A stretch of DNA of 51,344 nt from Acidimicrobiia bacterium (GCA_040905965.1 JBBDQP010000007.1:8042-59385), one strand, 5' to 3'; positions 4,113 through 18,328 are shown, counted from the first letter of the stretch. Notes: generated from the letters alone by a model not told the origin. Made by a program: numbers and translations.

Positions 4113-4246
4113 GTGCGAGCTCCTGTCACCAGGGAGGATCTTGCCAGACCGGTGGGTCGTGAGACGGCTGTGAGACGGAACTGGTCGCCCGATGGGTTGC
4201 TCTGAGTGATGTTGCGTTTGCGATCCGCCTATTTACAGAAGCGGGC

Positions 4247-5575
4247 CTACGAAGTGTGGCCCAGCCCTCTCAGGCGATCACTCAGATCTCGGATAGGCAA
4301 GAAGATGACCTGGCGCCCAACCCGGTGTTTCTCGAGAAGCCCCTCTTCGTGAAGTTGAGAGAGATCAGCGACGGCAGTTGGGCGTGTTATCCGGTGGCTC
4401 CCGAGGTGCGACTTGTACGTGTAACGGTAGGCGGGATGCCGCAAAGCGTGGCTGAGCAGTGCGAGTTGTCGATGGTTCAGCCACGCCGCGTCGCGAGCGA
4501 GCGCCTCCACCTCCTGAATTTCAGCGGTCTTCTTTTCGAGATAACTGTCGAGGTCGCGGATCGCGCGCTCGATCACCGTCAGGTGATACAGGATGAAGTA
4601 TGTGAGGTCTAGCTGGTCGGTCTCCGGGTGCAGAAATGCCCGCGCGTACTGGGCGGGCGCACGGTGGAGGATCCTTGAGATCGAGAGGAACTCCGTCACC
4701 CAATATCCCTGCCGGAGCATCGACCAATAGAACAGGGCCCGGGCAGTCCGGCCGTTGCCGTCGACGAACGGGTGATCGTATGCGAGCCAGAAGTGGACGA
4801 TTATTGCGCGGAGCACCGGGTGGATGAACCCCTTTCCGGCGCCATTGGCGAACTCGCACATGAGGGCGAGCCTTTCAGGAAGCTCCTCTGCAGCTGGGGG
4901 TGTATGAAGTACTTCCCCGTCCCGGTCGAGGATGACGACGCGCTTGTCGCCCGGCTGTTGGATCCGACCCTGGTTGTCGTCGGGGAGCGTTCCGCCGGCG
5001 ACCACGGAATGCAGGTCCAGGACGAGCTCAGGTGTGAACTTGGCATCACGATGACGCCGGACCCATTCCATCGCGCGATAGTTGTTGAGGACCATGCGCT
5101 GGTGAACGTCTTTCGGCTCGGTCCCGCCGCGGATCATCGCCTGCGCCGCTTGCCGAGTCGTAACCGCCCCCTCGAGTTGGCTGGAGCGAGTGGCCTCTTC
5201 GATGAGCGAATTCATGATGTATCGAGTTCGCGTCTGGGGGTTCACGAGACTGTCGGGGACGCCAAGCGTTCCCTGGCCCCTTCCATCGACAAAGTGAAGA
5301 CGTTCCAGAACCGAGTCAGGGACGGTGAAGCTCATCGGGGCACCATCAATCCCTTTCATCCCGGGTATGTGACGCATGGCGCTGCTTCTTGCAAGCTTTA
5401 GAGAGATCCACCACTCCTCATGGCTCACCCCTTCGGGGGCCGGTCGGCGACGCAGCTCGTCCCAGTGGAGATACCTGCTGTCATCGAACGCCAATTCGAA
5501 CAGCTCAAGGAGGCGTTTGTGGTCTCTGTCCTTGAGGAGGTCGGCCAGATCGAGTGGTCGCTGCGGGATTCGCAT
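4247..5575 (-). CDS. Fic family protein (class II, N-terminal inhibitory motif) with C-terminal wHTH
   Basis: HPFVDGNGRTAR catalytic motif; SSQLEG inhibitory motif; start chosen at MRIPQRP (track ORF extends to 5617). Confidence 0.9.
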   Translation of the reverse strand: MRIPQRPLDLADLLKDRDHKRLLELFELAFDDSRYLHWDELRRRPAPEGVSHEEWWISLKLARSSAMRHIPGMKGIDGAPMSFTVPDSVLERLHFVDGRGQGTLGVPDSLVNPQTRTRYIMNSLIEEATRSSQLEGAVTTRQAAQAMIRGGTEPKDVHQRMVLNNYRAMEWVRRHRDAKFTPELVLDLHSVVAGGTLPDDNQGRIQQPGDKRVVILDRDGEVLHTPPAAEELPERLALMCEFANGAGKGFIHPVLRAIIVHFWLAYDHPFVDGNGRTARALFYWSMLRQGYWVTEFLSISRILHRAPAQYARAFLHPETDQLDLTYFILYHLTVIERAIRDLDSYLEKKTAEIQEVEALARDAAWLNHRQLALLSHALRHPAYRYTYKSHLGSHRITRPTAVADLSQLHEEGLLEKHRVGRQVIFLPIRDLSDRLRGLGHTS

Positions 5576-5598
5576 CACGTGTAAAGGATTGCCATCGC

Positions 5599-5622
5599 TT
5601 GTCATTATACAAGACATGACAA
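5599..5622 (-). promoter_or_regulatory. fic promoter -10 (TATAAT, 5609-5604) inside a TTGTCAT-N10-ATGACAA inverted repeat
   Basis: Perfect TATAAT on minus strand nested in a 7-bp IR upstream of fic. Confidence 0.5.
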
Positions 5623-6121
5623 ATACCTAGTGGTGTTTTACACGTCGATGTATTCAACTACATACGTGTAATTCGGAGTCCCCGTGCTGGGTGTCGTCTT
5701 GCGCTTGTTCGAGCCAGCCAACCCGGCCGGCTGATCCGCCTGCGAACACTCAGGAGATTTGCCGCCCCATCGGCCACACCGAAGGTCTGGATTCCCGACA
5801 CGACGAGAGCCACTACCACGAGCCACGGCAGTCCCGAGAAGTGTCTGCTCAGATGTGGGCGCACTCGCAACCACCTCCTCGACTCCGACGGTACAGCCCG
5901 TGATTGATCCGCTGTAGGGCTGCTCTCTGTTGGACTGGCAGCGGGAGATTCATCCACACAAATACCCGAGGCACCCAGACCCCTGCCACACCGGCCTGGG
6001 CTTCCTTCGTGCCGAAACCGGATCTGTTTGTTAGGTGATCCGTTACGAGTGAGCACCGGATCGAACGGCCGTTCGTCCTGCCATCATCAGGAAATGCCCA
6101 TGATGTCAGGCCAATTCACGG

Positions 6122-6194
6122 TGGGTCCCGTGGGACTCGAACCCACAACCAACGGGTTAAAAGCCCGCTGCTCTGCCAATTGAGCTAGAGACCC
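6122..6194 (-). tRNA. tRNA-Lys (anticodon UUU)
   Basis: GGGTCTCTAGCTCAATTGGCAGAGCAGCGGGCTTTTAACCCGTTGGTTGTGGGTTCGAGTCCCACGGGACCCA; cloverleaf, TTCGA T-loop, CTTTTAA anticodon loop; CCA not encoded. Confidence 0.97.
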
Positions 6195-6267
6195 GGTACT
6201 GCAAGACAAGGTACAGGGTAAGGCGCGCGAAAACGCCGACGTTCGTCAGGCTGGATCCGTCGGTGGG
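6187..6267. repeat. Diverged partial copy (right half) of the 254-bp repeat; overlaps tRNA 5' end and promoter region
   Basis: AGAGACCCggTACTGCAAG...GGCGCG.GAAAACGCCGAC...GGCTGGATCCG.CGGTGG aligns with 8891-8971 and 14873-14953. Confidence 0.8.
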
Positions 6268-6298
6268 TGAGCCAAAGCAACGACGGCTGTAGGCGCAA

Positions 6299-8512
6299 AT
6301 GGAGCCGGAGCGCCCTATGAGCCCATCGTCGTCCACCGTCCTCAGGGCGTACGCTCCGGGAACAGTGAACGTCAACGTCCCGACCTCCGACCGGCTGCCG
6401 CCTGAATCGCCATCCCGGGTCCGGCGCCTTCCGAGGTGGCTACTCCCGGTTGTGGCGGCAGCCCTCGTGCTGGTAGCGGTCGTTGTAGTGGTGGGCGCGT
6501 TCTCGGCGCCTGAGGATTCCTCATCCGATGATCCGGATACCAGCCAACAGGGGGTGGTCGGTGGGCCGGCCCGGCCGATGTCTGGGTGGGAACTGATGTA
6601 CTTTCCGGGCGCGGGGACTTTCGTCGACGTCATGGACCATCCCGACGCGACGGTGGCATTGGCGTGGACGGGAACTCCTGATGGTCCCGGCTTGGCGCCG
6701 GCCGTCGGTTCGGCGGTGTGGGTTCTCGATGCTGTCAACTCGACCTGGTACGCCGCCGAACTCGAGGCAGCGGATCGTGCGGTTGTCTCGTCGGTGGCAA
6801 TGGTGGGAGGCGATGTTCTGATCGCCGGGAGCGTCGGTGGGGCGTCCCCGACGCCGACGCTGTGGGCCGGTCCGGCGGCCGGACCGTTCCGGATCGTCGA
6901 CCAGTCGTTCCCCCAATCCGTTCACCTGGAATCGATCCGCCGCCTGGACACCGAGACGGTCATTCTCCATCATGCGGTCGCACCCTGGAGCCACCCCCTT
7001 CTTCCCGGGGGTCCGTCCGGGGTGCTGGTCGGCGAGCCGGGCAACTGGACGGACATCACGCCCCTGGACGCCGAATTCGTGAACGAGATCATTTCCCATG
7101 ACGGGGAGTGGATCGCCGTCGGTGCCCGCGACGGCGAAGCGATGGCTTGGCATTCGATTGATCGGGGCAGCACCTGGTCGGCGCACCCGCCGCCAATCGA
7201 CAGTGAGGCGATGCTCACCGATGTGACCGTTGCCGGAGGCGACGCGTACGCGGCGGCGATGATCTTGGACACTGCCGGTCCTCACGTCCAACTGTTCCGC
7301 TACGACGGATCGTGGGCTGCTACCGGGGAGCCTCGACGGGGCGGGATCTTTTGGATTGCCGACATCGATGGCGAACTCGTCGGCGACGCCGCGTTCGACT
7401 TCACGCCGGCTCAGTTGTGGCAGCACGGCACCGGCGGACGATGGTCGGCAGTGCGGATGGCCATGCCGGCGGCGCCGGCGCGGCAGTGGCCCGCCTGGTT
7501 CATGGCCGCCGACGGGGGGAGGGTGGTGGGCGCCGTGTTAGGCCAGCCGGCGATGTGGCGTTCGGGAGCCGGCGGTGAATCCCTCCTGGCGACTCCCGCC
7601 GAAGCCGATCGGCTGTGGGAACGGGTGGCCACCCTCCCCGCCGGCCCATTCGTGACGTTTTCGGGTGATGAGATCATCGTGGTCGACTCCGGGCTGCAGC
7701 CGCTAACGACACCTGGCTTGCTTGTCAGCCGCGATGGCCTCGAGTGGGAGAAACGGGAACTTCCGACCGGGCTGAAGGTCACCGACATACGAGAAGTGGG
7801 CGGCCATACCGTGGTCGTCGGCGTTCGGGCGGCCTCGAACGTGGTGGTTGGACGATTCCACGACGACACGTTCGCGGTGATGGCGGAGCTCAAGGGGGCT
7901 CTGATTGGCCTTGACAGCTCCGACCATTCGATCATCCTGTTTGTCCGCCACGCGACCGTGACCACTCGGTACGAGATCCCGATCGAACCGGACAGTCCCA
8001 TCACGGAGACACCGGTGGCGGGAAGACCCGTGGCCATCTGGCCTGTGGGCGAGGGAGTCGTGGTGAGAGGCGAGTCCGCGGCCTTCGCGCGGCCCCCGAT
8101 TGGGATGAGTGTGTCGCAGGACGGCGGAATCGACTGGACGCCCGTCGACGTCGAGCCTTTGCGAGTCTTCCAGGTCGGGACCGAGATTGTCGTTTTCGCG
8201 GCAGACATGCCGGCCAGCACGTTCCGGCTCGAGGTCGACCCGATCGGGCTCGACGAGATCAGCCTTCCTCCCCGGTTCGCGACGTCCGCCACCGCCGGTT
8301 CGTCCATGTTCGAATGGGCTGGCGGCTTGGTCATACGTGAGCCAGGCAGTTTCGAGTACCTGGCGGCGATCGACGCCGACCCCGTGGTGCTCGAACTGTC
8401 GCCAAGAACCGGCCTCAACGGGGCGTTCGCGGTCCCCGCCGCCAACGGTCACGTCGTGACGCGGGAGGGCGAGGACTGGGTGCTCTACCGCTGGACGGGG
8501 CTCGCCCCGTGA
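6299..8512 (+). CDS. Large membrane-anchored extracellular beta-propeller (Asp-box) protein
   Basis: 737-aa ORF, single N-terminal TM, motifs SIDRGSTW, SRDGLEW, SQDGGIDW; start uncertain. Confidence 0.75.
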   Translation: MEPERPMSPSSSTVLRAYAPGTVNVNVPTSDRLPPESPSRVRRLPRWLLPVVAAALVLVAVVVVVGAFSAPEDSSSDDPDTSQQGVVGGPARPMSGWELMYFPGAGTFVDVMDHPDATVALAWTGTPDGPGLAPAVGSAVWVLDAVNSTWYAAELEAADRAVVSSVAMVGGDVLIAGSVGGASPTPTLWAGPAAGPFRIVDQSFPQSVHLESIRRLDTETVILHHAVAPWSHPLLPGGPSGVLVGEPGNWTDITPLDAEFVNEIISHDGEWIAVGARDGEAMAWHSIDRGSTWSAHPPPIDSEAMLTDVTVAGGDAYAAAMILDTAGPHVQLFRYDGSWAATGEPRRGGIFWIADIDGELVGDAAFDFTPAQLWQHGTGGRWSAVRMAMPAAPARQWPAWFMAADGGRVVGAVLGQPAMWRSGAGGESLLATPAEADRLWERVATLPAGPFVTFSGDEIIVVDSGLQPLTTPGLLVSRDGLEWEKRELPTGLKVTDIREVGGHTVVVGVRAASNVVVGRFHDDTFAVMAELKGALIGLDSSDHSIILFVRHATVTTRYEIPIEPDSPITETPVAGRPVAIWPVGEGVVVRGESAAFARPPIGMSVSQDGGIDWTPVDVEPLRVFQVGTEIVVFAADMPASTFRLEVDPIGLDEISLPPRFATSATAGSSMFEWAGGLVIREPGSFEYLAAIDADPVVLELSPRTGLNGAFAVPAANGHVVTREGEDWVLYRWTGLAP

Positions 8513-8741
8513 GCACGCCGATAGCATTTCAGACTCAGTCGCCGTGACGAATCCGTTTGCTGCTCGGGGCGGCAAAGCGCGGTGATCGCTCGGGTTCTGC
8601 GCGATCGCCAGTCATCGAAGCCCACGCCGAACCTCTAGCTCCTCCGTTCCGCCCACATCTCGCTACTGCAAGACGGGTCTCGCCGAAGACAATTGGGTGA
8701 AAGGTGATTGCACCCCATGTTGTGTTCCGCACGGTCCGGTG

Positions 8742-8995
8742 TGACATCCGAACCCGTGCAGCGGGGGACAAGGACGGACTTGATACATCCGGCCATTCCA
8801 GTCAGCGGCGGTGTGCATTCCAGAAAGGCCCGATCGGTGGGTCTGGCTTGTCGCGTTTGGGCCAGTGTTTTCGGGCTTTCTTGCAGCACCAGAGACCCAT
8901 TACTGCAAGCAAAGAGGCAGGATAGGGCGCGAGAAAACGCCCGACTCATGTCGGGCTGGAGCCGCCGGTGGCGGTCCTTCGGCTTGATAGGCCAC
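8742..8995. repeat. 254-bp direct repeat copy 1 with palindromic recombination-site-like core (8880-8909)
   Basis: Colinear with 14724-14977 (offset 5982); 151 bp identical (8788-8938 = 14770-14920); core CTTGCAGCAccAGAGACCCatTACTGCAAG. Confidence 0.95.
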
Positions 8996-9281
8996 GACTG
9001 ACTGTCCGCTGCGCTACGCGGAGTGCAATCGCGGTTCGAGGGACTCGTGACCAGCGGGGCCTGTTGCGGGCTACGTGTGCGGCCTCTCGATGCCGGGAAA
9101 GCAGTTGGGGGAAGGTCCTGGAGACCTACGTTCGGCGCTCACGGAGGTGACACGTACCATCTCGCTCGGGTCGACCGGTTGGTTTGGTCGTCGGGAGCTG
9201 TAGTTGGATGTCTGGTTCGCCGAAACAAGTGGGACCGTGGACGCTCGGTGAGCAGCTGGGTCGAGGAGGCAACACGACCGT

Positions 9282-9494
9282 GTGGTCGGCGACGCACTCA
9301 TCGGGCGAAAAGCTGCGATCCGGTGGTTGCTACTGATCCTCGAGAGAGACATCTGTGACGAGCGGGCACACCTGGCGTTGGTGCGGACACTGGTGGTGAT
9401 GGGCTCGGAGGGCGAAGCGCGGCGTCCGTACCGGCGCTACGTTGAGCGAATGGGCGATCTCGACATCGAGCCGGTGCCGTATCCGGACGGGTGA
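9282..9494 (+). pseudogene. C-terminal fragment of a BTAD (SARP-type activator) domain
   Basis: LERDICDERAHLALVRTLVVMGSEGEARRPYRRYVERMGDLDIEP resembles a BTAD C-terminus; no intact N-terminus. Confidence 0.6.
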
Positions 9495-9771
9495 AGCAGG
9501 CGCAGCATGCTGGCCAGTGGAGCATGTTGCCACATATTCCCCTCCCAGCCGATGTTCCCTGTGCTGCTGCCCGCTGACGGCAGGCCAGAGGCACACTCTG
9601 TTGGAACATGCGCCGCACGCTATAGCCCTGTGCCGGACGCCCGATTGAGGTGAGTGAGACGCGGAAGACGCCAGGGGGGTGTGTTCCGCATGGGCGACGG
9701 GTGGTCTTGGAGGGCCCGAGAGGCTTCGTCTGTCGCCGGTGAGTTCAAGAGTTCCTGGCGAGGGTCTGAGG

Positions 9772-10686
9772 TCAACCGTGGCAGATCTGCTGGGCGGTGA
9801 CACCGCTGGCAGCAGCGGAAGCGTCCGAGAATCCGAACGGCTTCAAGACCTGATCGGCGATTCCGTTGGTGCCGAGCCGGTGGAGGGTCTGGTTGAACTC
9901 GTCGCGGAGTCTGGTGTCTCCTTGGCGGAAGGCGAAGGCGCCGCAGCCGAGCTGGCCCTGGTAGGCAAAGGGCTCGGTGGTCTCGAATCCGTCGAGTGCG
10001 TCGGCTTGGGCAAGGCTGGCGAGGGAGACGGTGCTGAGGGCGCCGGCATCGATCCGGCCGGCCTGAAGATTGGCGAGCAGGTCGTTGGGGTTATCGACTC
10101 GAATGATCTGTGTTTCGGGTACTCCTGAGTCGACCGCTTGGGCTACTTCGACCGCTCCTGTTACGACCCCGAGGGTGAGAGACGGGTCCGAAGCGATGTC
10201 GGTGTACGTATCGATGTCGTGGGGGTTGCCGTACGCGACAAGGAATGCCTGTTCGACACAGAAGTAGGGGTCGGTGAAGATCACCTGTTGGCATCGGCCG
10301 GGAGTGACAAACATTCCGGCGGCGATGATGTCGAAGCTGCCTTGTTGGAGTCTGTCGATCAGCGCACCGAAAGGTGTGAGAACACCATCGATTTCAGGGA
10401 TTCCCAGTTCGCCGAATACGACCCGGGCGAGTTCGGGGCCGACGCCGGTCAGCGTGCCTTCGTCGCCGACGTGGCCGTATGGGGGTTCGTTGGCGAAACC
10501 GACACGGATGAACCCCTGCTGTTGGGCTCTGCTCAGGGTGTCGTCGATGGAACTGCGACAGGCGGCGAGAGGGCCGCTGATGGCGACGGCTACGGTGAGG
10601 AGGCCACTGTTGCGGAGGAACTGGCGGCGCGAGAGTGCCGCGCTGGTGCCGGGGTGTGTCGAATGGTGCATGGGATTTCCGATCAC
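9772..10686 (-). CDS. ehuB: Ectoine/hydroxyectoine ABC transporter substrate-binding lipoprotein, Tat-exported
   Basis: SRRQFLR Tat motif, LAAC lipobox, IRVGFANEPPYG, DIIAAGMFVTPGRCQQVIF. Confidence 0.8.
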   Translation of the reverse strand: MIGNPMHHSTHPGTSAALSRRQFLRNSGLLTVAVAISGPLAACRSSIDDTLSRAQQQGFIRVGFANEPPYGHVGDEGTLTGVGPELARVVFGELGIPEIDGVLTPFGALIDRLQQGSFDIIAAGMFVTPGRCQQVIFTDPYFCVEQAFLVAYGNPHDIDTYTDIASDPSLTLGVVTGAVEVAQAVDSGVPETQIIRVDNPNDLLANLQAGRIDAGALSTVSLASLAQADALDGFETTEPFAYQGQLGCGAFAFRQGDTRLRDEFNQTLHRLGTNGIADQVLKPFGFSDASAAASGVTAQQICHG

Positions 10687-12437
10687 TGCCCCCGTTTCGG
10701 CTCTGCCGCATTCTCAGGCGAGGTGGCGGGTTGTGAGATCCCGGGTTCGGACGGTCGAGCGGGCGGGAGGCGCAGTTCGAAGATGCTGGTGTCGTTCTCA
10801 CGGCGATAGGCCAATTTCCCGCCGAGAGCTGACGCGAGACGGTTGGAGACTCTGAGCCCGAGCCCGAGTGAGGCGGGTCCTCCGGGACTGTTCTTGGTGC
10901 CTCGTGAGGAGGTGAAAAGTCCGGCGACACGGTCGTCTGGAACTCCTGGCCCGTTGTCGGTGACCAACAGGATCGTCTGTTGTCGCTGGGGGATGACGGT
11001 GAGGGAGATGCTGTCACCTCCGTGACGGAGGGCGTTCGAATACAGGTGGCGGATGATGTGGCGTAGGCGCAGCGGGTCAGCCCAGGCGGATCCCGATCCT
11101 TCGACGTGTAACTCGACCCCGTCGGGGGTCGCCAGCTCGTTGAGGATCCGTTCGACTTCCCATCTCACGTCCAGCGTTTCGGGTCGCATGGGTAGGACTT
11201 CGGCGTCGAGTCGACCGAGGAGAAGGAGGTCGTCGACGAGACGTGCCAGCGCGTATCCCTCTTGGCGGACCAATCCCACGTATTCGCGGATCTCGGGATC
11301 AGCCGAAAGTGTGGCCTCCTCAAGAATGTCGGCCATTCCCACCACCACCGTCAAGGGTGTACGGAGTTCATGACTGATCGCGGTGATGAACTCGTCTTTC
11401 TCGTCGGTGATCCAACGGAGATGATCCACCTCACGGCGGGTGCGGACCTTGTTCACTGCGAGATGGGAGGCGACGGCGGCAATCAAGGTGAGAAGCAACC
11501 CGGGCACGAGTTCGGGTGGAAGGCCAGTGCCGATGAGGTCTCCACGCGCCTGGTCGGTAGGTATCACGCTGATTTCCCACAGTCGTCCCCCAAGTTCAAG
11601 TGTGACCGTGCGCCGCAGTGGGTCGGGCGATGCGACGGTTCCGGAATTCTGGTTGGTGAGGTCTGTTACTTGCCATTGAATGACCCGGCTCAGGTTGTCG
11701 GCAAGCTCTGCGTCGACCAAGCCGTCCAGTCGAGCAACCTCGACGGTGTACCCGGTCACGACTCGATCCTCCAAGACGGGCGAGGCAGCGATAAAGCCCC
11801 AGTCGCCCGGGATACCGAAGAGTTGGGTAAGTCGAGAGACCGAGGTGCGCTGGTCCCGGTTGGTGCGGGATAGGAGTTGGACCCAGACCGGGTCGCTGCT
11901 GGCGTCGAACCCGACCAGGTCGGGTTCAAACGGCGACGCAGCTACCGCGTACTGCACCGGCCACTGGCTGGGCTGGTTGCCGACGGACACCGGGTGCCCG
12001 AGACGGTCGAACTGGAAGAGGTCGTAATCAGGGTTTGTTCGGGTCACTTCATCGATGAATATCGGCCACTCGCCCGGCTCCAAGTGCGGGATGTAGGCAG
12101 TTGCCACACTGCCGGAGTGTTGTCCGGCGGTTCGTACGAAACGCTCGAATTCGGCCTGACTAACATGCTCGCTTGAGGTGAAAAGACCGGAAGCAGCCGA
12201 GGTTGCGCGCATCACGGTCAGCGCCGAGACCCGTACAGCCTCGGATACAAAGAGCAACCGGCGGTCCATCACATCGTGTGCGGTCCGCATCGTGTCCGCT
12301 CGGCCTGAGACTGCCCACACGGTGGCAAGGACAACACCAACCGCCAGCACGACAAATGTCAGACCGTGCCGTCGAAGCGCATTCCGCCCCGCTGCCACCT
12401 TGGAGGAACCGGACATACTTGTGGTATCGGTCGGCAA
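10683..12437 (-). CDS. CHASE-domain sensor histidine kinase
   Basis: Two TMs flanking a CHASE-like domain (VSQAEFERF, LVGFDASS); H-box ISHELRTPL; YSNALRHG, DNGPG, GLGL. Confidence 0.85.
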   Translation of the reverse strand: MPTDTTSMSGSSKVAAGRNALRRHGLTFVVLAVGVVLATVWAVSGRADTMRTAHDVMDRRLLFVSEAVRVSALTVMRATSAASGLFTSSEHVSQAEFERFVRTAGQHSGSVATAYIPHLEPGEWPIFIDEVTRTNPDYDLFQFDRLGHPVSVGNQPSQWPVQYAVAASPFEPDLVGFDASSDPVWVQLLSRTNRDQRTSVSRLTQLFGIPGDWGFIAASPVLEDRVVTGYTVEVARLDGLVDAELADNLSRVIQWQVTDLTNQNSGTVASPDPLRRTVTLELGGRLWEISVIPTDQARGDLIGTGLPPELVPGLLLTLIAAVASHLAVNKVRTRREVDHLRWITDEKDEFITAISHELRTPLTVVVGMADILEEATLSADPEIREYVGLVRQEGYALARLVDDLLLLGRLDAEVLPMRPETLDVRWEVERILNELATPDGVELHVEGSGSAWADPLRLRHIIRHLYSNALRHGGDSISLTVIPQRQQTILLVTDNGPGVPDDRVAGLFTSSRGTKNSPGGPASLGLGLRVSNRLASALGGKLAYRRENDTSIFELRLPPARPSEPGISQPATSPENAAEPKRGQ

Positions 12438-12768
12438 TCCGGGCTACTTCACCAAAACATGCTCGGCCCCGGTCGGCGCAGGAGGGGCGACGTGGCGTCG
12501 TTCGTCGCGATCGCACTGGAGGACGCGGAAACTCAGGGCGGGACCCGCTCTCATACACGCCCAAATTGTTGATCTGATCGGCAATGACGGCTTGGGCGTG
12601 CGTGTCAACCGATCTCGAATCGCGATCTGGACCGCGGGTGCCTCAATGAAATCAGTCGAGGTGCTGTGCCGACGCTGAACTGTCAGACGATTCGGCGGCC
12701 ATCGCGTGTTTCAGTGGGTGAGGAGCAGGGTAGGTCCCGGGGGGACCCATCGACGAAGGGAACACCAC

Positions 12769-12822
12769 ATGTCCATCGCCAAGGTCATCGAGATCAGCGC
12801 ACGGTCAGAGGTGTCGTTCGAA
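12769..12822 (+). pseudogene. Truncated dodecin N-terminus
   Basis: MSIAKVIEISARSEVSFE matches a dodecin start, then similarity is lost. Confidence 0.6.
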
Positions 12823-12968
12823 CCTACGGCCGCTAAAGGGGCGTCGGACTACCGCCGCTCCGCCGGGTGGAGTCGATTACGCCTCGCATGTCACCGGACG
12901 TTCATTTGTCCGTTGCCGGACGGCTACGCGAACCATCTAAATGCGATCGTGACAGAAAGGGGAGAGTC

Positions 12969-14126
12969 ATGAACGACCTGATCACACGCACCGTGCTGAG
13001 CGCATTGCGCAAGCAGTTCGATATGGACGTGGCATTCATCTCTGAGTTTCGTGAAGGCGATCGCGTTTTCAGATTTGTGGACACTGACGATGAGACCTGC
13101 CCTGTGGAGGTGGATGGCTCCGACCCACTGGAGGCCACATACTGCCAACGGGTTGTCGATGGACGGCTCCCCGAGCTGATGCGGGACGCCAAGACGTTCC
13201 AAGCAGCCAGGGAACTCCCTGCCACCGAAGAGCTCCCTGTCGGCGCCCACCTCAGCGTCCCTATTCGTCGATCCAACGGACGCATTTTCGGCACCCTGTG
13301 CTGTTTCAGTTACACGCCCGATCATGACCTCGGGGACGAGTCGGTGCGAACCTTGAGGGCGCTTGCGGACTTTGTCGGCTTCGTGCTCGAAGAGAACGAG
13401 ACCGAACAAGGCGACGCAATGCTCATCTGGAGCCGCATCACCCAACTCCTCGCATCCGCCGGGGGACCTCAGATCGTCTTCCAACCCATCGTCCAACTGC
13501 GATCACGGACGCCAGTGGGCCTCGAAGCGCTGTCCCGTTTCCCCGACGGCCGCGCACCGAACCAATGGTTTGCCGAGGCATGGGACCACGACCTCGGCAT
13601 CGCCCTTGAACACGCCGCCATCCAAACCGCGATCGCCGAGTTCGGGAACATACCCGAAGCTGTCTACCTCTCCGTCAACCTCTCACCGGACACTCTTTCA
13701 GACCCAGCGGTGCTTGAGACCTTGTACGCCGGTCCAACCGAGCGGCTTGTGGTCGAAGTGACCGAACATGCCGCAGTGGAAAAGCCCTCCGTGCTGCGTG
13801 AACTCCTCGAAGGGTTTCAATCCCGCGGTGGGCGGGTCGCCATCGACGATGTCGGAATGGGATTTTCGGGTCTTCACCATCTCGTCGAACTGGCGCCCGA
13901 CATCATGAAACTCGACAGGTCGCTGATCACCGATGTCGATACCCATCTGGCCAGACAGGCCATCGTCGCCGCACTCGTGACATACGCGCAAGCCGTCGGT
14001 GCCAGCGTCGTCGCTGAAGGCATCGAAACCGAAGCCGAACTCTGCGCCCTCATGGACCTCGGTGTCGAGAACGGTCAGGGCTACCACCTCGGACGCCCCG
14101 GGGAAATCAACCAAATCCGGTTTTGA
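12969..14126 (+). CDS. GAF + EAL domain c-di-GMP phosphodiesterase
   Basis: GAF (YCQRVVDG, GTLCCFS); FQPIV, EALSRF, VEVTEH, IDDVGMGFS, KLDRS, VAEGIET, QGYHLGRP. Confidence 0.9.
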   Translation: MNDLITRTVLSALRKQFDMDVAFISEFREGDRVFRFVDTDDETCPVEVDGSDPLEATYCQRVVDGRLPELMRDAKTFQAARELPATEELPVGAHLSVPIRRSNGRIFGTLCCFSYTPDHDLGDESVRTLRALADFVGFVLEENETEQGDAMLIWSRITQLLASAGGPQIVFQPIVQLRSRTPVGLEALSRFPDGRAPNQWFAEAWDHDLGIALEHAAIQTAIAEFGNIPEAVYLSVNLSPDTLSDPAVLETLYAGPTERLVVEVTEHAAVEKPSVLRELLEGFQSRGGRVAIDDVGMGFSGLHHLVELAPDIMKLDRSLITDVDTHLARQAIVAALVTYAQAVGASVVAEGIETEAELCALMDLGVENGQGYHLGRPGEINQIRF

Positions 14127-14129
14127 CAT

Positions 14130-14365
14130 GCACGGGGCGGCAAGGGGTGTAGGCGTGCCAGCCGCCCGTCATCGGTACATAGGTGAAGTCGGCGGTCACC
14201 AGTTCTCCCGGGGTGTCAAGATTCCAGTTGCGGTCGACCCAGGTCCGTAGCCCGTGTCGCGGCCGGACTCGGGATGGTGGTACGGACCTTCTTGAATCTG
14301 GTGGACACCCTGCCAGCGGTTGGCCTTCATGAGCCGTTCGATCGTGCAGCGCGCCACGAGCATGC
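14130..14365 (-). mobile_element. Frameshifted IS3-family transposase remnant
   Basis: VARCTIERLMKANRWQGV and, in another frame, WVDRNW...PGELVTADFTYVP (start of rve core). Confidence 0.7.
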
Positions 14366-14723
14366 ATGCCCGGGCGAGAAACGCATGTGGCGCCGTCAAC
14401 GCGGCGCCAAGAGCAAGCCCAGACGCGCCGCCCTGTAAGGCATCACCAGTGGTCCACCGGCCAACGACCACACCCGATATCCCTCCGACTGTCTCGGCCG
14501 CATAGAACGCTCGGGTTCCGACCCAAGCGCCCGCCCAGTCCCAGGTTTCAGCAATCAGAGATCGATCGCGCGACACGGTTCCAACCATGCGGGGTGATTT
14601 CGACCTCCCTTGGTCCGGGTGGGAGTCAGTACGACCAGCGCACATGAGCGCCTGGCAGTAGCGCTGTCAAGGATTGGCGGCGGTTGCGCCGGGCGATGAA
14701 GTCGTGGACGGTCATGTGGAGAT

Positions 14724-14977
14724 TGACATCCGGACCCGTGCAGCGGGGGACAAGGGCGGACGTGATACCTCCGGCCATTCCAGTCAGCGGCGGTGTGCAT
14801 TCCAGAAAGGCCCGATCGGTGGGTCTGGCTTGTCGCGTTTGGGCCAGTGTTTTCGGGCTTTCTTGCAGCACCAGAGACCCATTACTGCAAGCAAAGAGGC
14901 AGGATAGGGCGCGAGAAAACACCCGACTCTGGTCAGTCTGGATCCGCCGGTGCCGTTCCTTCGGCTTGACGGGCCAC
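14724..14977. repeat. 254-bp direct repeat copy 2 (core 14862-14891)
   Basis: Colinear with 8742-8995. Confidence 0.95.
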
Positions 14978-15024
14978 ATCCTCGGACCTGGAACGGATCG
15001 GCCGCCTCAACCGTTGGAGAGGTC

Positions 15025-15543
15025 ATGGGAGGACGCTTTTCATTGATGGTCGCCAGTCTCTTGGCGCTGAGCGTTGCGGCGTGCGGTACCGACACACTCG
15101 ATCATCCTCCAGGCGTTGCTGAAGTCGCGACCATGACCGCCGACGCCGCTATGAGCATCTGCGAGGGTCGCTGTGGCGACAAGATGGTGTACGTCGTCGA
15201 CGTGCTGAGAGATTTCGGTACACCCGCAGGCAAGGAACAGCCGATGCCTTCAGCTGTCCGGTCGGCTATTGCCCAGGCGCTGCCCGGAGCGGTCTTCGTT
15301 GCGCAGGCCGACCTGGCTGACCTGTTCGACGACGATTTCCTCGTCGACGGTGGTGACGGAGTCCTCGTCCAAGTTGGAGCGGTGCAGGACCTTGGTAGCA
15401 GCGTGGTGGGGATCAACGCGTACGTGACGACCGCGCGTGACGGGGCGTACGGAGAAACCTTCGCGTACGCCTGGGACGGATCCGGCTGGATACCGGCCAC
15501 TTCGGATGCGACCGACGTCCCCTTGACCACGGTGGTTTCCTAA
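15025..15543 (+). CDS. Hypothetical lipoprotein
   Basis: MGGRFSLMVASLLALSVAAC lipobox; GGAGAGG RBS. Confidence 0.75.
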   Translation: MGGRFSLMVASLLALSVAACGTDTLDHPPGVAEVATMTADAAMSICEGRCGDKMVYVVDVLRDFGTPAGKEQPMPSAVRSAIAQALPGAVFVAQADLADLFDDDFLVDGGDGVLVQVGAVQDLGSSVVGINAYVTTARDGAYGETFAYAWDGSGWIPATSDATDVPLTTVVS

Positions 15544-15590
15544 CCGCGTCGCCACCCGCCGCGGAGCGCAGATGCGGTTGCTGGGCGCTC

Positions 15591-16628
15591 CTATGTCAAT
15601 CCGTGGTCTCGGAAGGTCTTCCAGACTTGGCGGGCGACATGTCGTTTGGCGGCTCTGATAGTCCGTTTGCGGAGTGCGTCCTTGTTCTCAGGGTTGTGTC
15701 TGGAAGCGAAATCAGCGGCGTCTCCACCGTTGCGAAGCTGGGTTACGACAATGGTGTGCAGGGCCCGGTTGACCTGGCGGTTCCCTCCCCGGTTCAACCG
15801 GTGAAACTGCTGTCTGCCCGACGACGCGTCTAACGGGGCCGCCCCCGACCAGGCAGCGAACTTGGCGTCAGTAGCGAACCCGTCGATCCCGGCGGTCTCG
15901 GCGATGATCTGACAAGCCGTCACCAGGCCACACCCGAAGAACCGTTCAACCAGCGCATGACCCACCGGTGGCAACGCTTCCTGCATCCGTTCTTCCAACG
16001 CCTTGATCTCTCCGATCCGGACAATGCAGGTCTCGACGATCTGTCCGATCAGTTCCAACAGGGCCTGATCGAACCCCGTCGGGTCCTCAGCGTCGAACTG
16101 GGTGAACCGGCGGAGGCCACGAACGGTGCGGAGCCGGCTGGCGGTAGCGGACCGGTCCGGGTCCAGTTCGGTCACAAACGCCCGCAACTGGTTGATATCA
16201 GCGGTCTGCTGAGTCACCAACTGTTCCCGCCGGACCGTCAAAATCCGGATGATCTCCGAATCAGGAGTGTCCGCCCACCGGTGGCCTTCACCGGCAGCAG
16301 CTGCCCGAGCGATCGCCCTGGCATCCCCCGGATCAGTCTTCGACCGGCCCTCAGCCTTACGCCGTTCCGCCGTCAACCGGGTCGGGATCTCCCGCACCTC
16401 GAACCCCAACCCGTCCAGGATCCGGGTCAACGACACCCCATACCCAGACGCCCCCTCAATCCCAACCGTCACCACCTGAAACTCGGTCGCCAGCTCAGCC
16501 AGCCGCGCCCAACCGGTCAAAGTGTTCGGGACCGTCACCGCCCCCAACTCCCGGCCGATCTCATCCACCACAGCCGCGCTGATCGTGTCCAAATGCGGAT
16601 CACATCCCATCGTCGTTACCGTGTCCAT
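15591..16628 (-). CDS. IS110-family DEDD recombinase/transposase
   Basis: GCDPH, GIEGASGYG, SKTDPGDA (DEDD RuvC-like); GAAPLDASSG, RLNRGGNRQVNRAL (Tnp domain, catalytic Ser). Confidence 0.95.
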   Translation of the reverse strand: MDTVTTMGCDPHLDTISAAVVDEIGRELGAVTVPNTLTGWARLAELATEFQVVTVGIEGASGYGVSLTRILDGLGFEVREIPTRLTAERRKAEGRSKTDPGDARAIARAAAAGEGHRWADTPDSEIIRILTVRREQLVTQQTADINQLRAFVTELDPDRSATASRLRTVRGLRRFTQFDAEDPTGFDQALLELIGQIVETCIVRIGEIKALEERMQEALPPVGHALVERFFGCGLVTACQIIAETAGIDGFATDAKFAAWSGAAPLDASSGRQQFHRLNRGGNRQVNRALHTIVVTQLRNGGDAADFASRHNPENKDALRKRTIRAAKRHVARQVWKTFRDHGLT

Positions 16629-16675
16629 CACGGTCACCTCCACCACTCGATCGATACGTGTGCACGGGGTGAACC

Positions 16676-16835
16676 ACCAACGCGGACAGTCCTTTGTCGA
16701 GGCACTATTCGGCTCAGGCACCTATCAGGTCACGCGTTGACGGGAACCGGCCCCCGGATGGACAAGCCCAGCAAGAGTCACACCCCACACAGGGTGGACA
16801 AGGGGGGGAAGAGTCACATCCGGGGGCCGGTCACC
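16676..16835 (-). ncRNA. IS110 bridge RNA (target-binding and donor-binding loops)
   Basis: Stem ACCGGCCCCCGGATG/CATCCGGGGGCCGGT with two GTGACTCTT-N7-TTGTCCA strands; second stem CAACGCG/GCGTTG; guides match element flanks and ends. Confidence 0.85.
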
Positions 16836-16983
16836 CACCACCACACCATGACACAAAGGGGGGGGTCGTGACCGACGACCGCAGTCTCCTCGGTCACGGT
16901 TGCGCCGCTGATCGTGCTGGCCGGGTTCTTCGTCATCGCCACGGGGTTCCCTGCCCCCGATCTGCGTCGAAAGGGACCGCGGA

Positions 16984-17661
16984 CTATCCCGCCCGGCGGT
17001 ACGTCTCGAGTGCGTCGAGGATCAGGTCGAGGCCGAACTCGAACTCGTCGGAGTAGCTGTAACCGTCCCCGTACTCGGCGACCATCTCGGCCAGGTGGGG
17101 AAAGACCTGGTCGGCGTCGTCAGGGTTCGGCTCGTCGGGTGCTGGGGTCACCGCATCCGGATCTGGAGCGGTGTAGCTCGTCTCCTGGACGACGAACCCG
17201 TAGATGTAGCTGTCCAAGAGCATGAAGGCGTGTGCAGTCATCTGGAGGGAGAACCCGCCGACCCGGAGGCTCCCTATCACTGCGTCGACATACCGCAGCG
17301 TGGCGGGCCCCATCGTTGAAGTCGATTCCATCATCCCGATCGCCCAGGGGTGACTCGTCAGGACCCGCCGGGCCGAGAGGGCGCGTTGGCGCATGGCCGT
17401 GCGCCAGTCGCCGCCGGCCGGGGGCAACTCGATCTCGCCGAAGGCCAGGTCGACGATCCCGTGGAGCACGTCTTCCTTGTCTGCGACGTGCTTGTACAGC
17501 GACATCGCCTCGACCCCCAACCGCCCACCCAGGCGCCGCATGGTCAGCGACTCCAGCCCGCCCTCGTCGGCGATGGCGATCGCAGCGCGCAGGATTCGCT
17601 CGCGGCTGAGTGGTGGGCGCGTGCCTGGTTTCGGTGTGTGCTCTGAGATCTCTTCCGCCAT
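16984..17661 (-). CDS. TetR/AcrR regulator with TetR_C domain
   Basis: LSRERILRAAIAIADEGGLESLTMRRLGGRLGVEAMSLYKHV; FEFGLDLILD. Confidence 0.92.
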   Translation of the reverse strand: MAEEISEHTPKPGTRPPLSRERILRAAIAIADEGGLESLTMRRLGGRLGVEAMSLYKHVADKEDVLHGIVDLAFGEIELPPAGGDWRTAMRQRALSARRVLTSHPWAIGMMESTSTMGPATLRYVDAVIGSLRVGGFSLQMTAHAFMLLDSYIYGFVVQETSYTAPDPDAVTPAPDEPNPDDADQVFPHLAEMVAEYGDGYSYSDEFEFGLDLILDALETYRRAG

Positions 17662-17673
17662 GTCGCTTGCAAG

Positions 17674-17719
17674 CTTACTAAGTAGACGCTAGCGTCACCA
17701 GGCAAGGTTACTAAGTAAG
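17674..17719. promoter_or_regulatory. Twin TetR operators (CTTAC-TAA-GTAAG type) in divergent intergenic region
   Basis: CTTACTAAGTAG 17674-17685 and GTTACTAAGTAAG 17707-17719. Confidence 0.7.
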
Positions 17720-17740
17720 CCAACCAGAAGTGAGAGCGAA

Positions 17741-18232
17741 ATGACGAACAAGACAAGAGCGAGCCGAGAGAAGGGCCATCTGGAGGATCAGCCGGTGCCG
17801 GTGCGCACCAAGTTGTCCGTGCTGTGGATCACGGTGATGTTCCTGTACGTGTACGTGGACATCTTCGGCTTCTACCTGCCGGGGACGATCGAGGACATCC
17901 TGGTGGGACGGGTGTGGGAGTTCGACATCAGCCAAGGCTGGGTGTTCGGCGCATTGGCGCTCATGGCAATCCCGGCGCTCATGGTGTTCCTGTCTCTGGC
18001 GCTGCCCGCGCGTATGGCCCGCTGGTCCAACCTGGTGATCGGGGGGCTCTACATCCCGGTCTCGCTTTTCAACCTTATCGACGCGACGTGGGCGCATTAC
18101 TGGCTGGGGGCGATCATCGAGGTCGGGTTGTTGGTGCTCGTCGTTCGGTCTGCCTGGCTGTGGCCGAGGGTCACGGATCGCGCGGATCGGGCGGAAAACC
18201 ACACCGCAACACCGGTGCCAGCGGGGCGCTGA
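17741..18232 (+). CDS. DUF6326-like four-TM membrane protein
   Basis: VRTKLSVLWITVMFLYVYVDIFGFYLPG signature; divergent from TetR. Confidence 0.75.
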   Translation: MTNKTRASREKGHLEDQPVPVRTKLSVLWITVMFLYVYVDIFGFYLPGTIEDILVGRVWEFDISQGWVFGALALMAIPALMVFLSLALPARMARWSNLVIGGLYIPVSLFNLIDATWAHYWLGAIIEVGLLVLVVRSAWLWPRVTDRADRAENHTATPVPAGR

Positions 18233-18328
18233 GGTCCGGACGCTGACGACCCGACCCAAGTGATCGAACTCGCTCAAGTCATCCCGGACGGCTTGTGGCC
18301 TCTGGCCGCGGGCTGAGGATCACGCCGG

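What the first reader, a model, noticed from the sequence alone, without database searches (positions are those of the whole stretch)
6187..14977. Tandem integrase-less cassettes stacked at the 5' end of tRNA-Lys via a palindromic site, each carrying a replacement tRNA upstream region
Seen: a 254-bp direct repeat (8742-8995, 14724-14977; 151 bp identical) with a 30-bp core CTTGCAGCAcc-AGAGACCC-atTACTGCAAG. AGAGACCC is the reverse complement of the first 8 nt of tRNA-Lys (6187-6194). The tRNA is flanked by the same right arm at the same spacing (AGAGACCCggTACTGCAAG) plus ~70 nt of diverged homology, including a -10-like TACCCT/TATCCT. The three junctions define two modules: 2704 bp (beta-propeller gene) and 5982 bp (ehuB, CHASE kinase, GAF-EAL, fragments). 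Established: inverted arms around a 6-8 bp asymmetric spacer is tyrosine-recombinase core geometry, and most tRNA islands duplicate the 3' end, not the 5' end. Inference: cargo modules accrete by site-specific recombination at tRNA nt 1-8, each re-supplying the promoter, and are mobilised in trans since no integrase is in the window. This would be an integron/pdif-like cassette array.
Basis: partly seen in the sequence, partly recalled or inferred. Interest (0 to 1): 0.85.

Follow-up and report, generated by a model that had tools for sequence, protein, structure and literature searches.

The report
Gene modules stacked upstream of tRNA-Lys
Two blocks of accessory genes sit one behind the other at the start of a lysine tRNA gene, each bounded by the same 254-base junction that carries a spare copy of the tRNA's promoter, which looks like a recombinase-less gene-capture array at an unusual place, although the enzyme that moves the blocks was not found.

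Summary
The 254-nt repeat, the three-way homology beginning at tRNA-Lys nt 1-8, and the 2704- and 5982-nt spacings are all real. The unit occurs nowhere else in this genome.

New evidence:
- The junction is an 11-8-11 palindrome.
- It is flanked by a conserved non-coding 150-nt arm (X) and a roughly 100-125-nt arm (P).
- P carries a terminator-like hairpin, a TAnnnT -10 and the native tRNA leader.
- Four congeners and one sister genus hold the same units around different cargo.
- The beta-propeller gene with its P0-type arm recurs in another species behind an X arm instead of the tRNA.
- Array sequences are 83-90% identical between species. Backbone genes are 64-81% identical.

This supports mobile, recombinase-less modules that accrete at the tRNA 5' end and replace its promoter.

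Not shown: the recombinase, crossover inside the 8 bp, or circular intermediates. The genome holds only XerC/D-type tyrosine recombinases, and its dif candidate does not resemble the site. That argues against a pdif/Xer reading. There is no IntI and no attC-like site, which argues against an integron.

The closest known kind is tandem accretion of integrase-less islands (CIMEs) at tRNA genes, here on the rare 5' side. Rated a new variant of a known kind; moderate interest.

The parts
6120..6194 (-). tRNA-Lys(UUU). It is the only tRNA-Lys(UUU) among 37 tRNAs found in the genome. Its first 8 nt (6187-6194) are core copy 0.
6195..6266 (-). P0, the tRNA-proximal promoter arm. It holds right arm GGTACTGCAAG (6195-6205), -10-like TACCCT (6220-6215) and a hairpin plus T-run upstream. 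It is truncated relative to the full P arm.
6195..8890 (.). Module 1: P0, cargo and X1. The period is 2704 nt.
6299..8512 (+). Cargo of module 1: a 737-aa protein with no Pfam or NCBIfam family. Atlas leads point to BNR/DUF6242 beta-propeller clusters.
8742..8890 (.). X1 arm, conserved and non-coding. It holds two CATTCCAG direct repeats 22 nt apart (8794, 8816), CAGCGGCGG (8803) inverted to CCGCCGGTG in P (8962), a terminator-like hairpin on the + strand (8843-8865) and left arm CTTGCAGCACC (8880-8890).
8891..8898 (.). Core copy 1, AGAGACCC. It is the 8-bp spacer of the 30-bp 11-8-11 site at 8880-8909.
8899..8995 (-). P1 arm. It holds right arm ATTACTGCAAG, -10-like TATCCT (8924-8919) and a terminator-like hairpin on the minus strand (8956-8939). 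Homology to relatives' P arms runs on to about 9031.
8899..14872 (.). Module 2: P1, cargo and X2. The period is 5982 nt.
9772..10686 (-). Cargo: an EhuB-type substrate-binding protein, without the other ehu genes.
10683..12437 (-). Cargo: CHASE-domain histidine kinase.
12867..14126 (+). Cargo: GAF-EAL c-di-GMP phosphodiesterase-type protein.
14724..14872 (.). X2 arm, in the same register as X1.
14873..14880 (.). Core copy 2, AGAGACCC.
14881..14977 (-). P2 arm, outermost. It is either the start of a further truncated module or the displaced original tRNA upstream region.
15025..15543 (+). Lipoprotein-like gene just outside P2, with a signal peptide and a lipobox-like VAAC. It has no family hit.
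15591..16721 (-). IS110-family RNA-guided transposase (context). No complementarity of 9 nt or more was found between its flanks and the site.
4171..6114 (.). Insertion on the 3' side of the tRNA relative to G005 (context). It carries a Fic-domain gene at 4247-5617 on the minus strand.

Best explanation
The 254-nt units are composite recombination junctions of attP type. Each has an X arm of about 150 nt, an 11-8-11 core whose 8-bp spacer equals tRNA-Lys nt 1-8, and a P arm of about 100-125 nt.

They belong to a small family of recombinase-less integrative modules that accrete in tandem at the 5' end of the single tRNA-Lys(UUU) gene.

Proposed mechanism:
- A module enters as a circle carrying X-core-P.
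- It crosses over in or next to the 8-bp spacer with tRNA-core-P.
- It ends up next to the tRNA.
- Its own P arm (terminator hairpin, TAnnnT -10, native-type leader) then becomes the tRNA's promoter.
- The previous P is displaced outward behind the new module's X arm.

The recombinase acts in trans. It is most likely a tyrosine-type enzyme encoded by an autonomous family member that is not in this assembly. Homologous recombination and gene conversion between units then reshuffle and homogenise them.

Shown: the anatomy, the exchange of cargo between genomes at the units, the promoter features, and the lack of a linked recombinase.

Inferred: the class of enzyme, the crossover point, the circular intermediate, and present-day activity.
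For: 1. Anatomy.
- Three sites lie in register, and there are no other copies in the genome.
- The arms are 8 of 11 palindromic at the G000 units. They reach 10 of 11 at G004:C137 sites a and b and at G006:C265.
- The arm variant CTGGCAG...CTGCCAG is changed on both sides in G006:C265.
- X is not coding: variable columns fall 21/20/18 over the three codon positions, and there are 1-nt and 7-nt indels.
- X has no Rfam match. Its folds are no better than shuffles (z +0.67 and +1.51).
- X holds two CATTCCAG repeats 22 nt apart and an inverted block mirrored in P. This is what arm-type protein-binding sites look like.

2. P is a tRNA-Lys promoter.
- It has a TAnnnT -10 with a terminator-like hairpin and T-run just upstream.
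- The leader ...GCAGT(A/C)CC directly before the tRNA occurs in 4 of 29 family loci with readable upstream sequence, G000 included. The cgttttc-type T-run with a -10 further upstream also occurs in 4 of 29, a partly different set.
- Between them these motifs are seen in genera where no X was found.
- The tRNA is single-copy.

3. Exchange between genomes.
- Units occur in 6 of 201 family genomes searched, G000 included. These are 4 of 7 congeners and 1 sister genus.
- G006:C265 has X | core x3 | P0-type arm (90%) | the same beta-propeller gene (86% over 2316 nt). So the same module sits behind an X arm instead of the tRNA.
- G004:C137 has two units 2475 nt apart around PadR and MDMPI genes.
- G007:C104 carries the beta-propeller gene, a 1046-aa cyclase-STAND-TPR gene, an X with a decayed core, a second propeller gene, then partial X, core and P.
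- The tRNA-proximal cargo differs in G000, G003 and G004.

4. Mobility.
- X, P and module 1 are 83-90% identical between species and genera. Backbone stretches of the same window are 64-81% identical.

5. No linked recombinase.
- G000 has 2 PF00589 hits, both Xer-type, and 0 resolvase hits.
- None of the 8 relatives' contigs that hold an X unit or the tRNA-adjacent P arm carries an integrase.
- None of the 9 integrase-bearing stretches fetched from relatives holds X or P.

6. Assembly support.
- A contig of an independent run spans unit 1 (8155-9147) with 0 differences.
Against: - No recombinase was identified.
- No circle or deletion joint was seen in four runs of Logan contigs. The single joint, 6259 to 8969, has only 24 letters on its shorter side and reads as another P variant.
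- The 151 identical bases span the core symmetrically. A tyrosine recombinase alone would not produce this, so gene conversion must also act.
- P arms are mosaic between genomes, so homologous recombination is at work.
- Tandem copies of the 7-8-nt core occur in G003 (x2), G006:C265 (x3) and G006:C254 (x2). Precise site-specific exchange does not predict these.
- The tRNA-side half-site matches the left arm at only 3 of 11 positions (by eye).
- X is kept at 88% in G010:C17, where the core and P are almost unrecognisable. X may therefore have a function of its own.
- All comparison genomes are fragmented MAGs. In the relatives, linkage of the arrays to the tRNA is seen only for the first P arm (G003, G004).
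Confidence: 0.5

Rival explanations
1. No site-specific system is involved. The unit is a duplicated functional locus: a tRNA-Lys-type promoter drives a non-coding X element. The apparent cassettes arise from homologous recombination, unequal crossover and gene conversion between these 250-nt direct repeats and the tRNA's own upstream region.
For: - The central 151 nt are identical, with diverged flanks.
- P arms are mosaic.
- X always lies downstream of the P promoter in the same orientation.
- X is conserved at 88% in G010, where the core and P have decayed.
- No recombinase was found.
Against: - It does not explain the 11-8-11 dyad centred on the junction, or the arm changes on both sides.
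- X shows no RNA-structure signal and no Rfam family.
- The decayed copies lack a promoter.
- Homology of 80-250 nt at 80-90% identity is a poor substrate for the repeated capture of unrelated cargo seen in five genomes.
- Module similarity exceeds backbone similarity, which points to horizontal transfer.
Confidence: 0.2
2. The host's XerC/XerD act on the site, as in cer-type plasmid sites, IMEX elements or pdif modules. This would make the modules integrase-less by design.
For: - The only tyrosine recombinases in the 94%-complete genome are two Xer-type proteins.
- The 11-8-11 core with about 150 nt of conserved adjacent sequence has the geometry of cer-type sites. A passage read in PMC2731167 states that an 8-bp central region occurs in plasmids such as ColE1, always with adjacent sequence and accessory proteins.
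Against: - A unique dif candidate exists at G000:C83:2817-2844. It matches the unit core at only 13 of 28 positions, and 531 of 2000 shuffles do as well.
- The inner ATAA/TTAT motif is absent from most arm variants.
- The sites are direct repeats. They are not the alternating orientation I recall for pdif modules (recalled, not from a call).
Confidence: 0.08
3. Each module is a non-autonomous transposon with 11-bp terminal inverted repeats (GGTACTGCAAG ... CTTGCAGCACC) and an 8-bp target-site duplication (AGAGACCC). It inserts at a strongly preferred target at the tRNA start.
For: - Each module is flanked by the same 8 bp in direct orientation. Its two ends are inverted repeats, matching at 10 of 11 positions for module 1 and 8 of 11 for module 2.
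- Tandem 8-nt copies with nothing between them in G003 and G006 look like footprints.
- Subterminal repeats are present.
Against: - The supposed left end and about 45-100 nt behind it are native tRNA-Lys upstream sequence. This sequence is present in genera where no X was found. A transposon end would not show that.
- No transposase is linked other than an IS110-family gene, whose family I recall as making neither inverted repeats nor 8-bp duplications (recalled, not from a call). Its flanks show no match to the site.
- No copy occurs anywhere else in the genome.
Confidence: 0.08
4. The tandem order is an assembly artefact. A 151-nt exact repeat in a metagenome assembly has joined segments of different strains, or a free circle, into one contig.
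For: - The repeat exceeds common k-mer sizes.
- Logan contigs break at the units.
- Relatives' contigs break at the tRNA and inside units.
Against: - The listed pieces of the flank, module 1, module 2 and the right side have similar word depth in the likely source run (50-65) and in a second run (18-30).
- One contig of another run bridges unit 1 (8155-9147) without a difference.
- Unit flanks differ, so the copies can be phased.
- Independent assemblies of other species show two units on one contig (G004:C137, G007:C104).
Confidence: 0.03

Closest known systems
CIMEs (cis-mobilizable elements) and tandem accretion of islands at tRNA genes, e.g. ICESt1/ICESt3-related elements and the Streptococcus agalactiae tRNA-Lys composite islands. 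Passages of review PMC5704250 were read.
   Same: The elements have lost, or lack, integration genes but keep att sites. They stack in tandem by site-specific integration into an att site of the resident element. The target is a tRNA gene. Mobilisation is by an integrase supplied by another element.
   Different: - The array is on the 5' side of the tRNA. The shared block is the promoter, the leader and only 8 nt of the gene, not the 3' part of the gene.
- No cognate integrase-bearing element was found.
- Modules are small (2.5-6 kb) and carry no transfer or decayed mobility genes.
Genomic islands that integrate upstream of a tRNA gene (Klebsiella arg2A-VII group, D-loop sublocation). A passage of preprint 10.1101/2020.11.02.365908 was read.
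   Same: Integration is on the promoter side of a tRNA gene. The authors describe this as the exception to downstream integration.
   Different: Those islands encode their own integrase, and the stated sublocation is the D-loop. Here the boundary is at nt 8, no integrase is linked, and the modules are stacked.
Integron cassette arrays.
   Same: There is an ordered array of exchangeable gene modules at one fixed chromosomal site. The newest module is expected next to the fixed site. The recombination site is re-formed between neighbours.
   Different: - No IntI is next to the site.
- The junctions are 254-nt conserved sequences, not variable attC hairpins.
- Modules hold several genes in both orientations.
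- The promoter is carried by each module and serves the tRNA, not the cassettes.
Xer-dependent elements and sites: cer-type plasmid sites, IMEX, pdif modules. A PMC2731167 passage was read; pdif and IMEX are recalled.
   Same: There is no element-encoded recombinase. The core geometry is 11-8-11 with long adjacent conserved sequence. Elements stack at one site.
   Different: The core does not resemble this genome's dif candidate. The target is a tRNA start, not dif.
Elements that integrate at the 5' end of a gene and re-supply it: dusA-specific islands (PMC4482086, abstract in a search listing only) and SXT at prfC (recalled).
   Same: The element restores the 5' part and the expression signals of the target gene.
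   Different: Those targets are protein-coding genes, and the elements carry their own integrase.
Tandem ssrA-specific islands of Dehalococcoides (PMC3146451, abstract in a search listing only).
   Same: Islands integrate at one small-RNA gene (read in the abstract). That they stack there in tandem between direct repeats is my recollection.
   Different: I recall those islands integrating at the 3' end of ssrA beside a linked integrase; the abstract I saw does not state this.

Membership tests
CIME / tandem accretion at a tRNA gene | Modules are flanked by att sites in direct orientation that share a block with the tRNA locus. | tested here: met
   Three sites lie in register. The shared block is the core plus about 80 nt.
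CIME / tandem accretion at a tRNA gene | The modules contain no integration or transfer genes. | tested here: met
   Pfam and NCBIfam scans of module genes were done. There are no PF00589 or PF00239 hits in the window.
CIME / tandem accretion at a tRNA gene | A related autonomous element with a cognate integrase uses the same att site. | tested here: not met
   None was found in 201 family genomes, in the 9 integrase-bearing stretches fetched from relatives, or in viral, metagenome and genome pattern scans. The assemblies are fragmented, so absence is not shown.
CIME / tandem accretion at a tRNA gene | Excision as a circle and re-integration. | tested here: inconclusive
   Logan contigs cannot show rare junctions, and no clean joint was seen.
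Integron | An IntI-type integrase gene lies next to the primary site. | tested here: not met
   The genome has only two Xer-type recombinases, on other contigs. The tRNA's other side holds a Fic gene.
Integron | attC sites are imperfect hairpins of variable sequence bounding mostly single promoterless genes in one orientation. | tested here: not met
   The junctions are 254 nt long and conserved in sequence. The folds of unit 1 in either strand (8735-8925) are no better than shuffles. The modules hold genes in both orientations, three with family hits in module 2.
Xer-dependent modules (pdif / IMEX / cer-type) | XerC and XerD are present in the host. | tested here: met
   Two Xer-type proteins are present. 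NF001399 scores are 318.5 and 283.3 against a cut-off of 279.
Xer-dependent modules (pdif / IMEX / cer-type) | The core arms resemble the host's dif arms. | tested here: not met
   13 of 28 positions match the dif candidate at G000:C83:2817-2844, and 531 of 2000 shuffles do as well.
Inverted-repeat transposon or MITE | Terminal inverted repeats and a target-site duplication. | tested here: met
   The ends match at 8-10 of 11 positions, and each module is flanked by 8-bp direct repeats.
Inverted-repeat transposon or MITE | Both ends are element-specific, and copies occur at other sites. | tested here: not met
   The P-side end is native tRNA upstream sequence. No copy occurs elsewhere in the genome.
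Structured RNA gene or riboswitch (for X) | A conserved secondary structure with covariation, or a known family. | tested here: not met
   There is no Rfam match. Folding z-scores are +0.67 and +1.51. In the 7-sequence alignment, 5 of 36 predicted pairs have a double change and the covariation term is unfavourable.

The most novel reading that the evidence does not exclude
The first 8 nt of a single-copy tRNA gene serve as the fixed site of a chromosomal gene-capture platform. Small multi-gene modules are inserted and shuffled there by a recombinase that is not linked to the array. Each module must bring a working terminator-promoter-leader for the essential tRNA, so promoter supply is the entry ticket. 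Functionally this would be an integron-like system built on a tRNA promoter. It would be unrelated to IntI/attC. It may coexist with a second, classical array on the tRNA's 3' side.
Probability: 0.2. Interest if true: 0.8.

Novelty: new variant of a known kind. Interest (0 to 1): 0.55.

Why it matters
Island finders such as Islander look for displaced tRNA gene fragments (abstract read). As far as I recall, the displaced fragment is normally the 3' part. An array whose shared block is the promoter plus only 8 nt of the gene is invisible to such searches.

If modules really enter at the tRNA start, three things follow:
- There is a class of integration site in which the incoming DNA must replace the promoter of an essential RNA gene.
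- Recombinase-less modules of 2.5-6 kb can be a main source of strain-level gene content differences in an uncultured lineage.
- The 30-bp 11-8-11 site and its arms define a concrete substrate for finding the missing recombinase.

Tried and rejected
RNA readings of X:
- Rfam scans at gathering and at E up to 1 gave only the tRNA and a chance plastid hit.
- Single-sequence folds of both strands were no better than shuffles.
- The alifold run showed little covariation.

Coding reading of X:
- A minus-strand frame is open through X in several copies.
- Variable columns show no 3-periodicity, and indels break the frame. Rejected.

IS110 as the mobiliser:
- No match of 9 nt, and one chance match of 8 nt, was found between the site and 14978-17000.
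- The IS110 region occurs once in the assembly.

Xer:
- The dif candidate does not resemble the core.

Search for more copies or an autonomous element:
- Pattern scans of genome contigs, metagenome contigs and viral contigs gave only chance matches or nothing.
- The family search was limited to 3 scored candidates per genome.

Integrase contigs of relatives:
- None carried X or P.

Read evidence:
- All four runs are Logan contigs from one study, and one may be the source sample.
- No clean skip of 2704 or 5982 nt and no circle joint was seen.
- The joint 6259 to 8969 (one contig, shorter side 24 letters, 3 letters between) is below the tool's own bar. It reads as a further P variant.
- Loose ends at 6194-6196 and 6119-6130 are what any conserved tRNA gives in a community.
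- Loose ends at 9005 (3 runs), 8950 (2 runs) and 14977 (1 run) show other neighbours of P in the community. They cannot be assigned to an organism.

Synteny with G005:
- G005:C63 starts inside a gene at window 23358, so it gives no right-hand boundary.

G010:C17 solo X:
- I first read it as a breakpoint exactly at the left arm.
- The alignment shows weak residual P homology, so it is a decayed unit, not a new junction.

Small ORFs (149, 157, 111, 132 and 188 aa):
- They have no family hit and their composition looks like wrong-frame reading.
- Only the 188-aa ORF (relatives at 43-71%) and part of the 157-aa ORF (39% over 56 aa) match a fetched locus of another genome; the 149-, 111- and 132-aa ORFs match only themselves.

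Not available:
- No supplements were opened. Supplementary tables of the Klebsiella tRNA-island preprint and of Islander may list further 5'-side cases that I could not see.
- Whether promoter-side arrays like this are in print was probed only by searches. I cannot state that none exists.

Full report
**What is in the window**

ARAGORN and Rfam place a tRNA-Lys(UUU) at 6120-6194 on the minus strand. It is the only tRNA-Lys(UUU) among the 37 tRNAs found in the 2.43-Mb, 94%-complete assembly.

A 254-nt direct repeat lies at 8742-8995 and 14724-14977. It has 14 mismatches, distributed as follows:
- 4 in the first 46 nt
- 0 in the central 151 nt (8788-8938)
- 10 in the last 57 nt

From AGAGACCC (6187, 8891, 14873; the reverse complement of tRNA nt 1-8) rightwards, three sequences align over about 80 nt: the tRNA's upstream region (P0) and the right parts of both repeats (P1, P2). 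P0 matches P1 or P2 at 64 of 86 aligned columns. P1 matches P2 at 77 of 85. Leftwards the repeats carry a 150-nt stretch (X) that is unrelated to the tRNA.

BLAST and an nhmmer profile of nine copies find only these three places in the genome. The unit is therefore not a dispersed repeat.

**Anatomy of the unit**

The junction is an 11-8-11 site: CTTGCAGCACC | AGAGACCC | ATTACTGCAAG at 8880-8909.
- With the P0-type right arm (GGTACTGCAAG) the two arms are 10 of 11 palindromic.
- G006:C265 has CTGGCAGGACC ... GGTGCTGCCAG, in which the same arm position is changed on both sides.
- G007:C104 has CTGGCAGTTCC ... GGGACTGCGAG.

X is not coding:
- Variable alignment columns fall 21/20/18 on the three codon positions.
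- Copies differ by 1-nt and 7-nt indels.

X is not a recognisable structured RNA:
- It has no Rfam match.
- Folding z-scores are +0.67 and +1.51.
- Only 5 of 36 predicted pairs show a double change, with an unfavourable covariation term.

Conservation in X is blocky. It includes two CATTCCAG direct repeats 22 nt apart, and a block (CAGCGGCGG) that is inverted in P (CCGCCGGTG) at a similar distance on the other side of the core.

On the tRNA strand P holds, in order:
- a terminator-like hairpin with a T-run
- a TAnnnT -10 (TACCCT or TATCCT)
- the leader CTTGCAGTA(C/A)(C/T) directly before the tRNA start

X holds a terminator-like hairpin on the opposite strand just before the left arm.

**P is native tRNA-Lys upstream sequence**

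I compared the 75 nt upstream of tRNA-Lys(UUU) in 30 family loci, of which 29 were readable. Two motifs stand out:
- The leader ...GCAGT(A/C)CC directly before the tRNA occurs in 4 of the 29, G000 included.
- The cgttttc-type T-run followed by a -10 also occurs in 4 of the 29, a partly different set.

G010 reads cgttttcgcgagggTTATCGTGCAGTCCC|GGG.

Between them the motifs are seen in genera where no X was found. The right arm and the proximal P are therefore ancestral chromosome, and the left arm on X is an inverted copy of them. This fits an attachment site whose shared block with the target is the promoter region. It weakens a reading of the modules as transposons with two element-specific ends.

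**Relatives**

The unit was found in 6 of 201 family genomes searched, G000 included. These are 4 of 7 congeners and the single genome of one sister genus.

| Contig | Content |
|---|---|
| G006:C265 | X, a triplicated core, a P0-type arm (90% to P0), then the same beta-propeller gene (86% over 2316 nt). The module next to the tRNA in G000 sits behind an X arm here. |
| G004:C137 | Two units 2475 nt apart around PadR and MDMPI genes, then a TPR gene. |
| G007:C104 | End of the beta-propeller gene, a 1046-aa cyclase-STAND-TPR gene, an X whose core is deleted, a DUF6923 propeller gene, a partial X with an intact core and a variant P, then a RibD_C gene. |
| G003:C219 | tRNA, core (duplicated) and P, followed by an oxidoreductase-like gene. 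|
| G004:C197 | tRNA, core and P, followed by a short-chain dehydrogenase. |

Further observations on the relatives:
- In the closest relative, G005, the conserved Trk-type gene is followed by the tRNA, and the contig ends 2 nt past the tRNA start.
- A G006 contig ends inside the tRNA.
- The gene was not found in G001, G002 or G007. This is what a repeated or heterogeneous locus does to short-read assemblies, but it is only circumstantial.
- Array sequences (X, P, module 1) are 83-90% identical between these genomes. Backbone stretches of the same window are 64-81% identical. That argues for horizontal movement of modules.

**The enzyme**

- G000 has two PF00589 proteins, both Xer-type.
- It has no resolvase-type recombinase.
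- It has three IS110-family genes, one of them 600 nt from unit 2.
- The IS110 flanks share nothing with the site.
- A unique dif candidate (G000:C83:2817-2844) was found with two short motifs that I recalled. It matches the core no better than shuffled sequence does (13 of 28; 531 of 2000 shuffles).
- Relatives have further integrases. None of the nine integrase-bearing stretches that I fetched holds X or P.
- The integrase beside the tRNA in G010 lies on the 3' side, as classical elements do.

The recombinase is unknown.

**Read evidence**

Four runs of one study hold the stretch. All are kept as Logan contigs, and one may be the source sample.
- The listed pieces have similar word depth across the flank, both modules and the right side (50-65 in X1; 18-30 in X2).
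- One contig of run X4 spans unit 1 (8155-9147) without a difference. This argues against a mis-join there.
- No clean circle or deletion joint was seen. Contigs cannot show rare forms.

**Reading**

The best-supported explanation is tandem accretion of recombinase-less integrative modules at the 5' end of tRNA-Lys. Their X-core-P junctions are attP-like sites. Their P arm replaces the tRNA promoter when a module is tRNA-proximal.

Two things do not fit pure site-specific exchange:
- The 151 identical bases span the core symmetrically.
- The 7-8-nt core is present in two or three tandem copies in G003 and G006.

Gene conversion and slippage, or imprecise events, must therefore be added.

The rivals are homologous recombination between duplicated promoter-X loci, Xer action, a target-specific inverted-repeat transposon, and a mis-assembly. 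Each is given with its weight in the report sections.

**Comparison with known systems**

- The closest known kind is the CIME and tandem-accretion model of islands at tRNA genes (passages of PMC5704250).
- Upstream integration at a tRNA has been noted as an exception in Klebsiella (passage of 10.1101/2020.11.02.365908).
- The 11-8-11 core with adjacent sequence recalls cer-type Xer sites (passage of PMC2731167).
- Membership in the integron and pdif families fails on tested features.

I rate it a new variant of a known kind. It is real and probably mobile, but its mechanism is unproven and its known range is one genus and a neighbour.

Noticed in passing
window 4171-6114; L025 (G004:C197) 239-2473: The 3' side of the same tRNA is also variable. 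Relative to G005, G000 has a 1.9-kb insertion with a Fic-domain gene between the Trk-type gene and the tRNA. G004 has two mini-modules there (1276 and 885 nt, one with a Fic gene) bounded by 43-50-nt copies of the tRNA 3' part and carrying no integrase. G000 has no such tRNA fragment.
   Followed up: partly
window 15591-16721: An IS110-family RNA-guided transposase (NF033542, 164.9 bits) lies 600 nt outside unit 2. The region occurs once in the assembly, and the genome holds three IS110-family genes. No bridge-RNA-like match to the site was seen.
   Followed up: partly
L023 10160-10190 (G003:C219); L020 3000-3030 (G006:C265); L019 4240-4260 (G006:C254): The 7-8-nt core is tandemly multiplied at some sites: GAGACCCG x2 next to the G003 tRNA, x3 in G006:C265, and AGGGACC x2 in G006:C254. 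This is unexplained. It may be slippage, footprints or imprecise recombination.
   Followed up: no
G000:C83:2817-2844 (L109): A unique dif-like site, TGCGCCCATAA-TCTCCG-TTATGTCAAGT, was found with two short recalled motifs. It is the likely chromosome dimer resolution site of this genome.
   Followed up: partly
window 9772-12437: An EhuB-type ectoine-binding protein gene stands without ehuACD. It overlaps by 4 nt the end of a CHASE histidine kinase gene, which suggests a binding-protein-dependent sensor rather than a transporter.
   Followed up: no
L018 (G010:C17) 3967-4135, 9689-9729, 11101-11307, 13081-13118: The sister genus holds a solitary X arm (88% identity) with a decayed core and P. 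About 5-9 kb away are two 38-41-nt tRNA-Lys-like fragments around a weak integrase remnant (24.9 bits). This looks like a decayed island region.
   Followed up: partly
window 8950, 9005, 14977 (loose ends): Community contigs leave the window's sequence at 9005 (3 runs) and 14977 (1 run). At 8950 (2 runs) a variant joins X-like sequence to P without the core region. P arms therefore have other neighbours in the same sediments.
   Followed up: no
window 6195-23357 versus G005:C64 and G005:C63: The closest relative's contigs stop at the tRNA start and resume at window 23358, inside a gene. Nothing from 14978-23357 was found in G005 except 68-70% paralogues. The strain-specific region may therefore be about 17 kb, not 8.8 kb.
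   Followed up: partly
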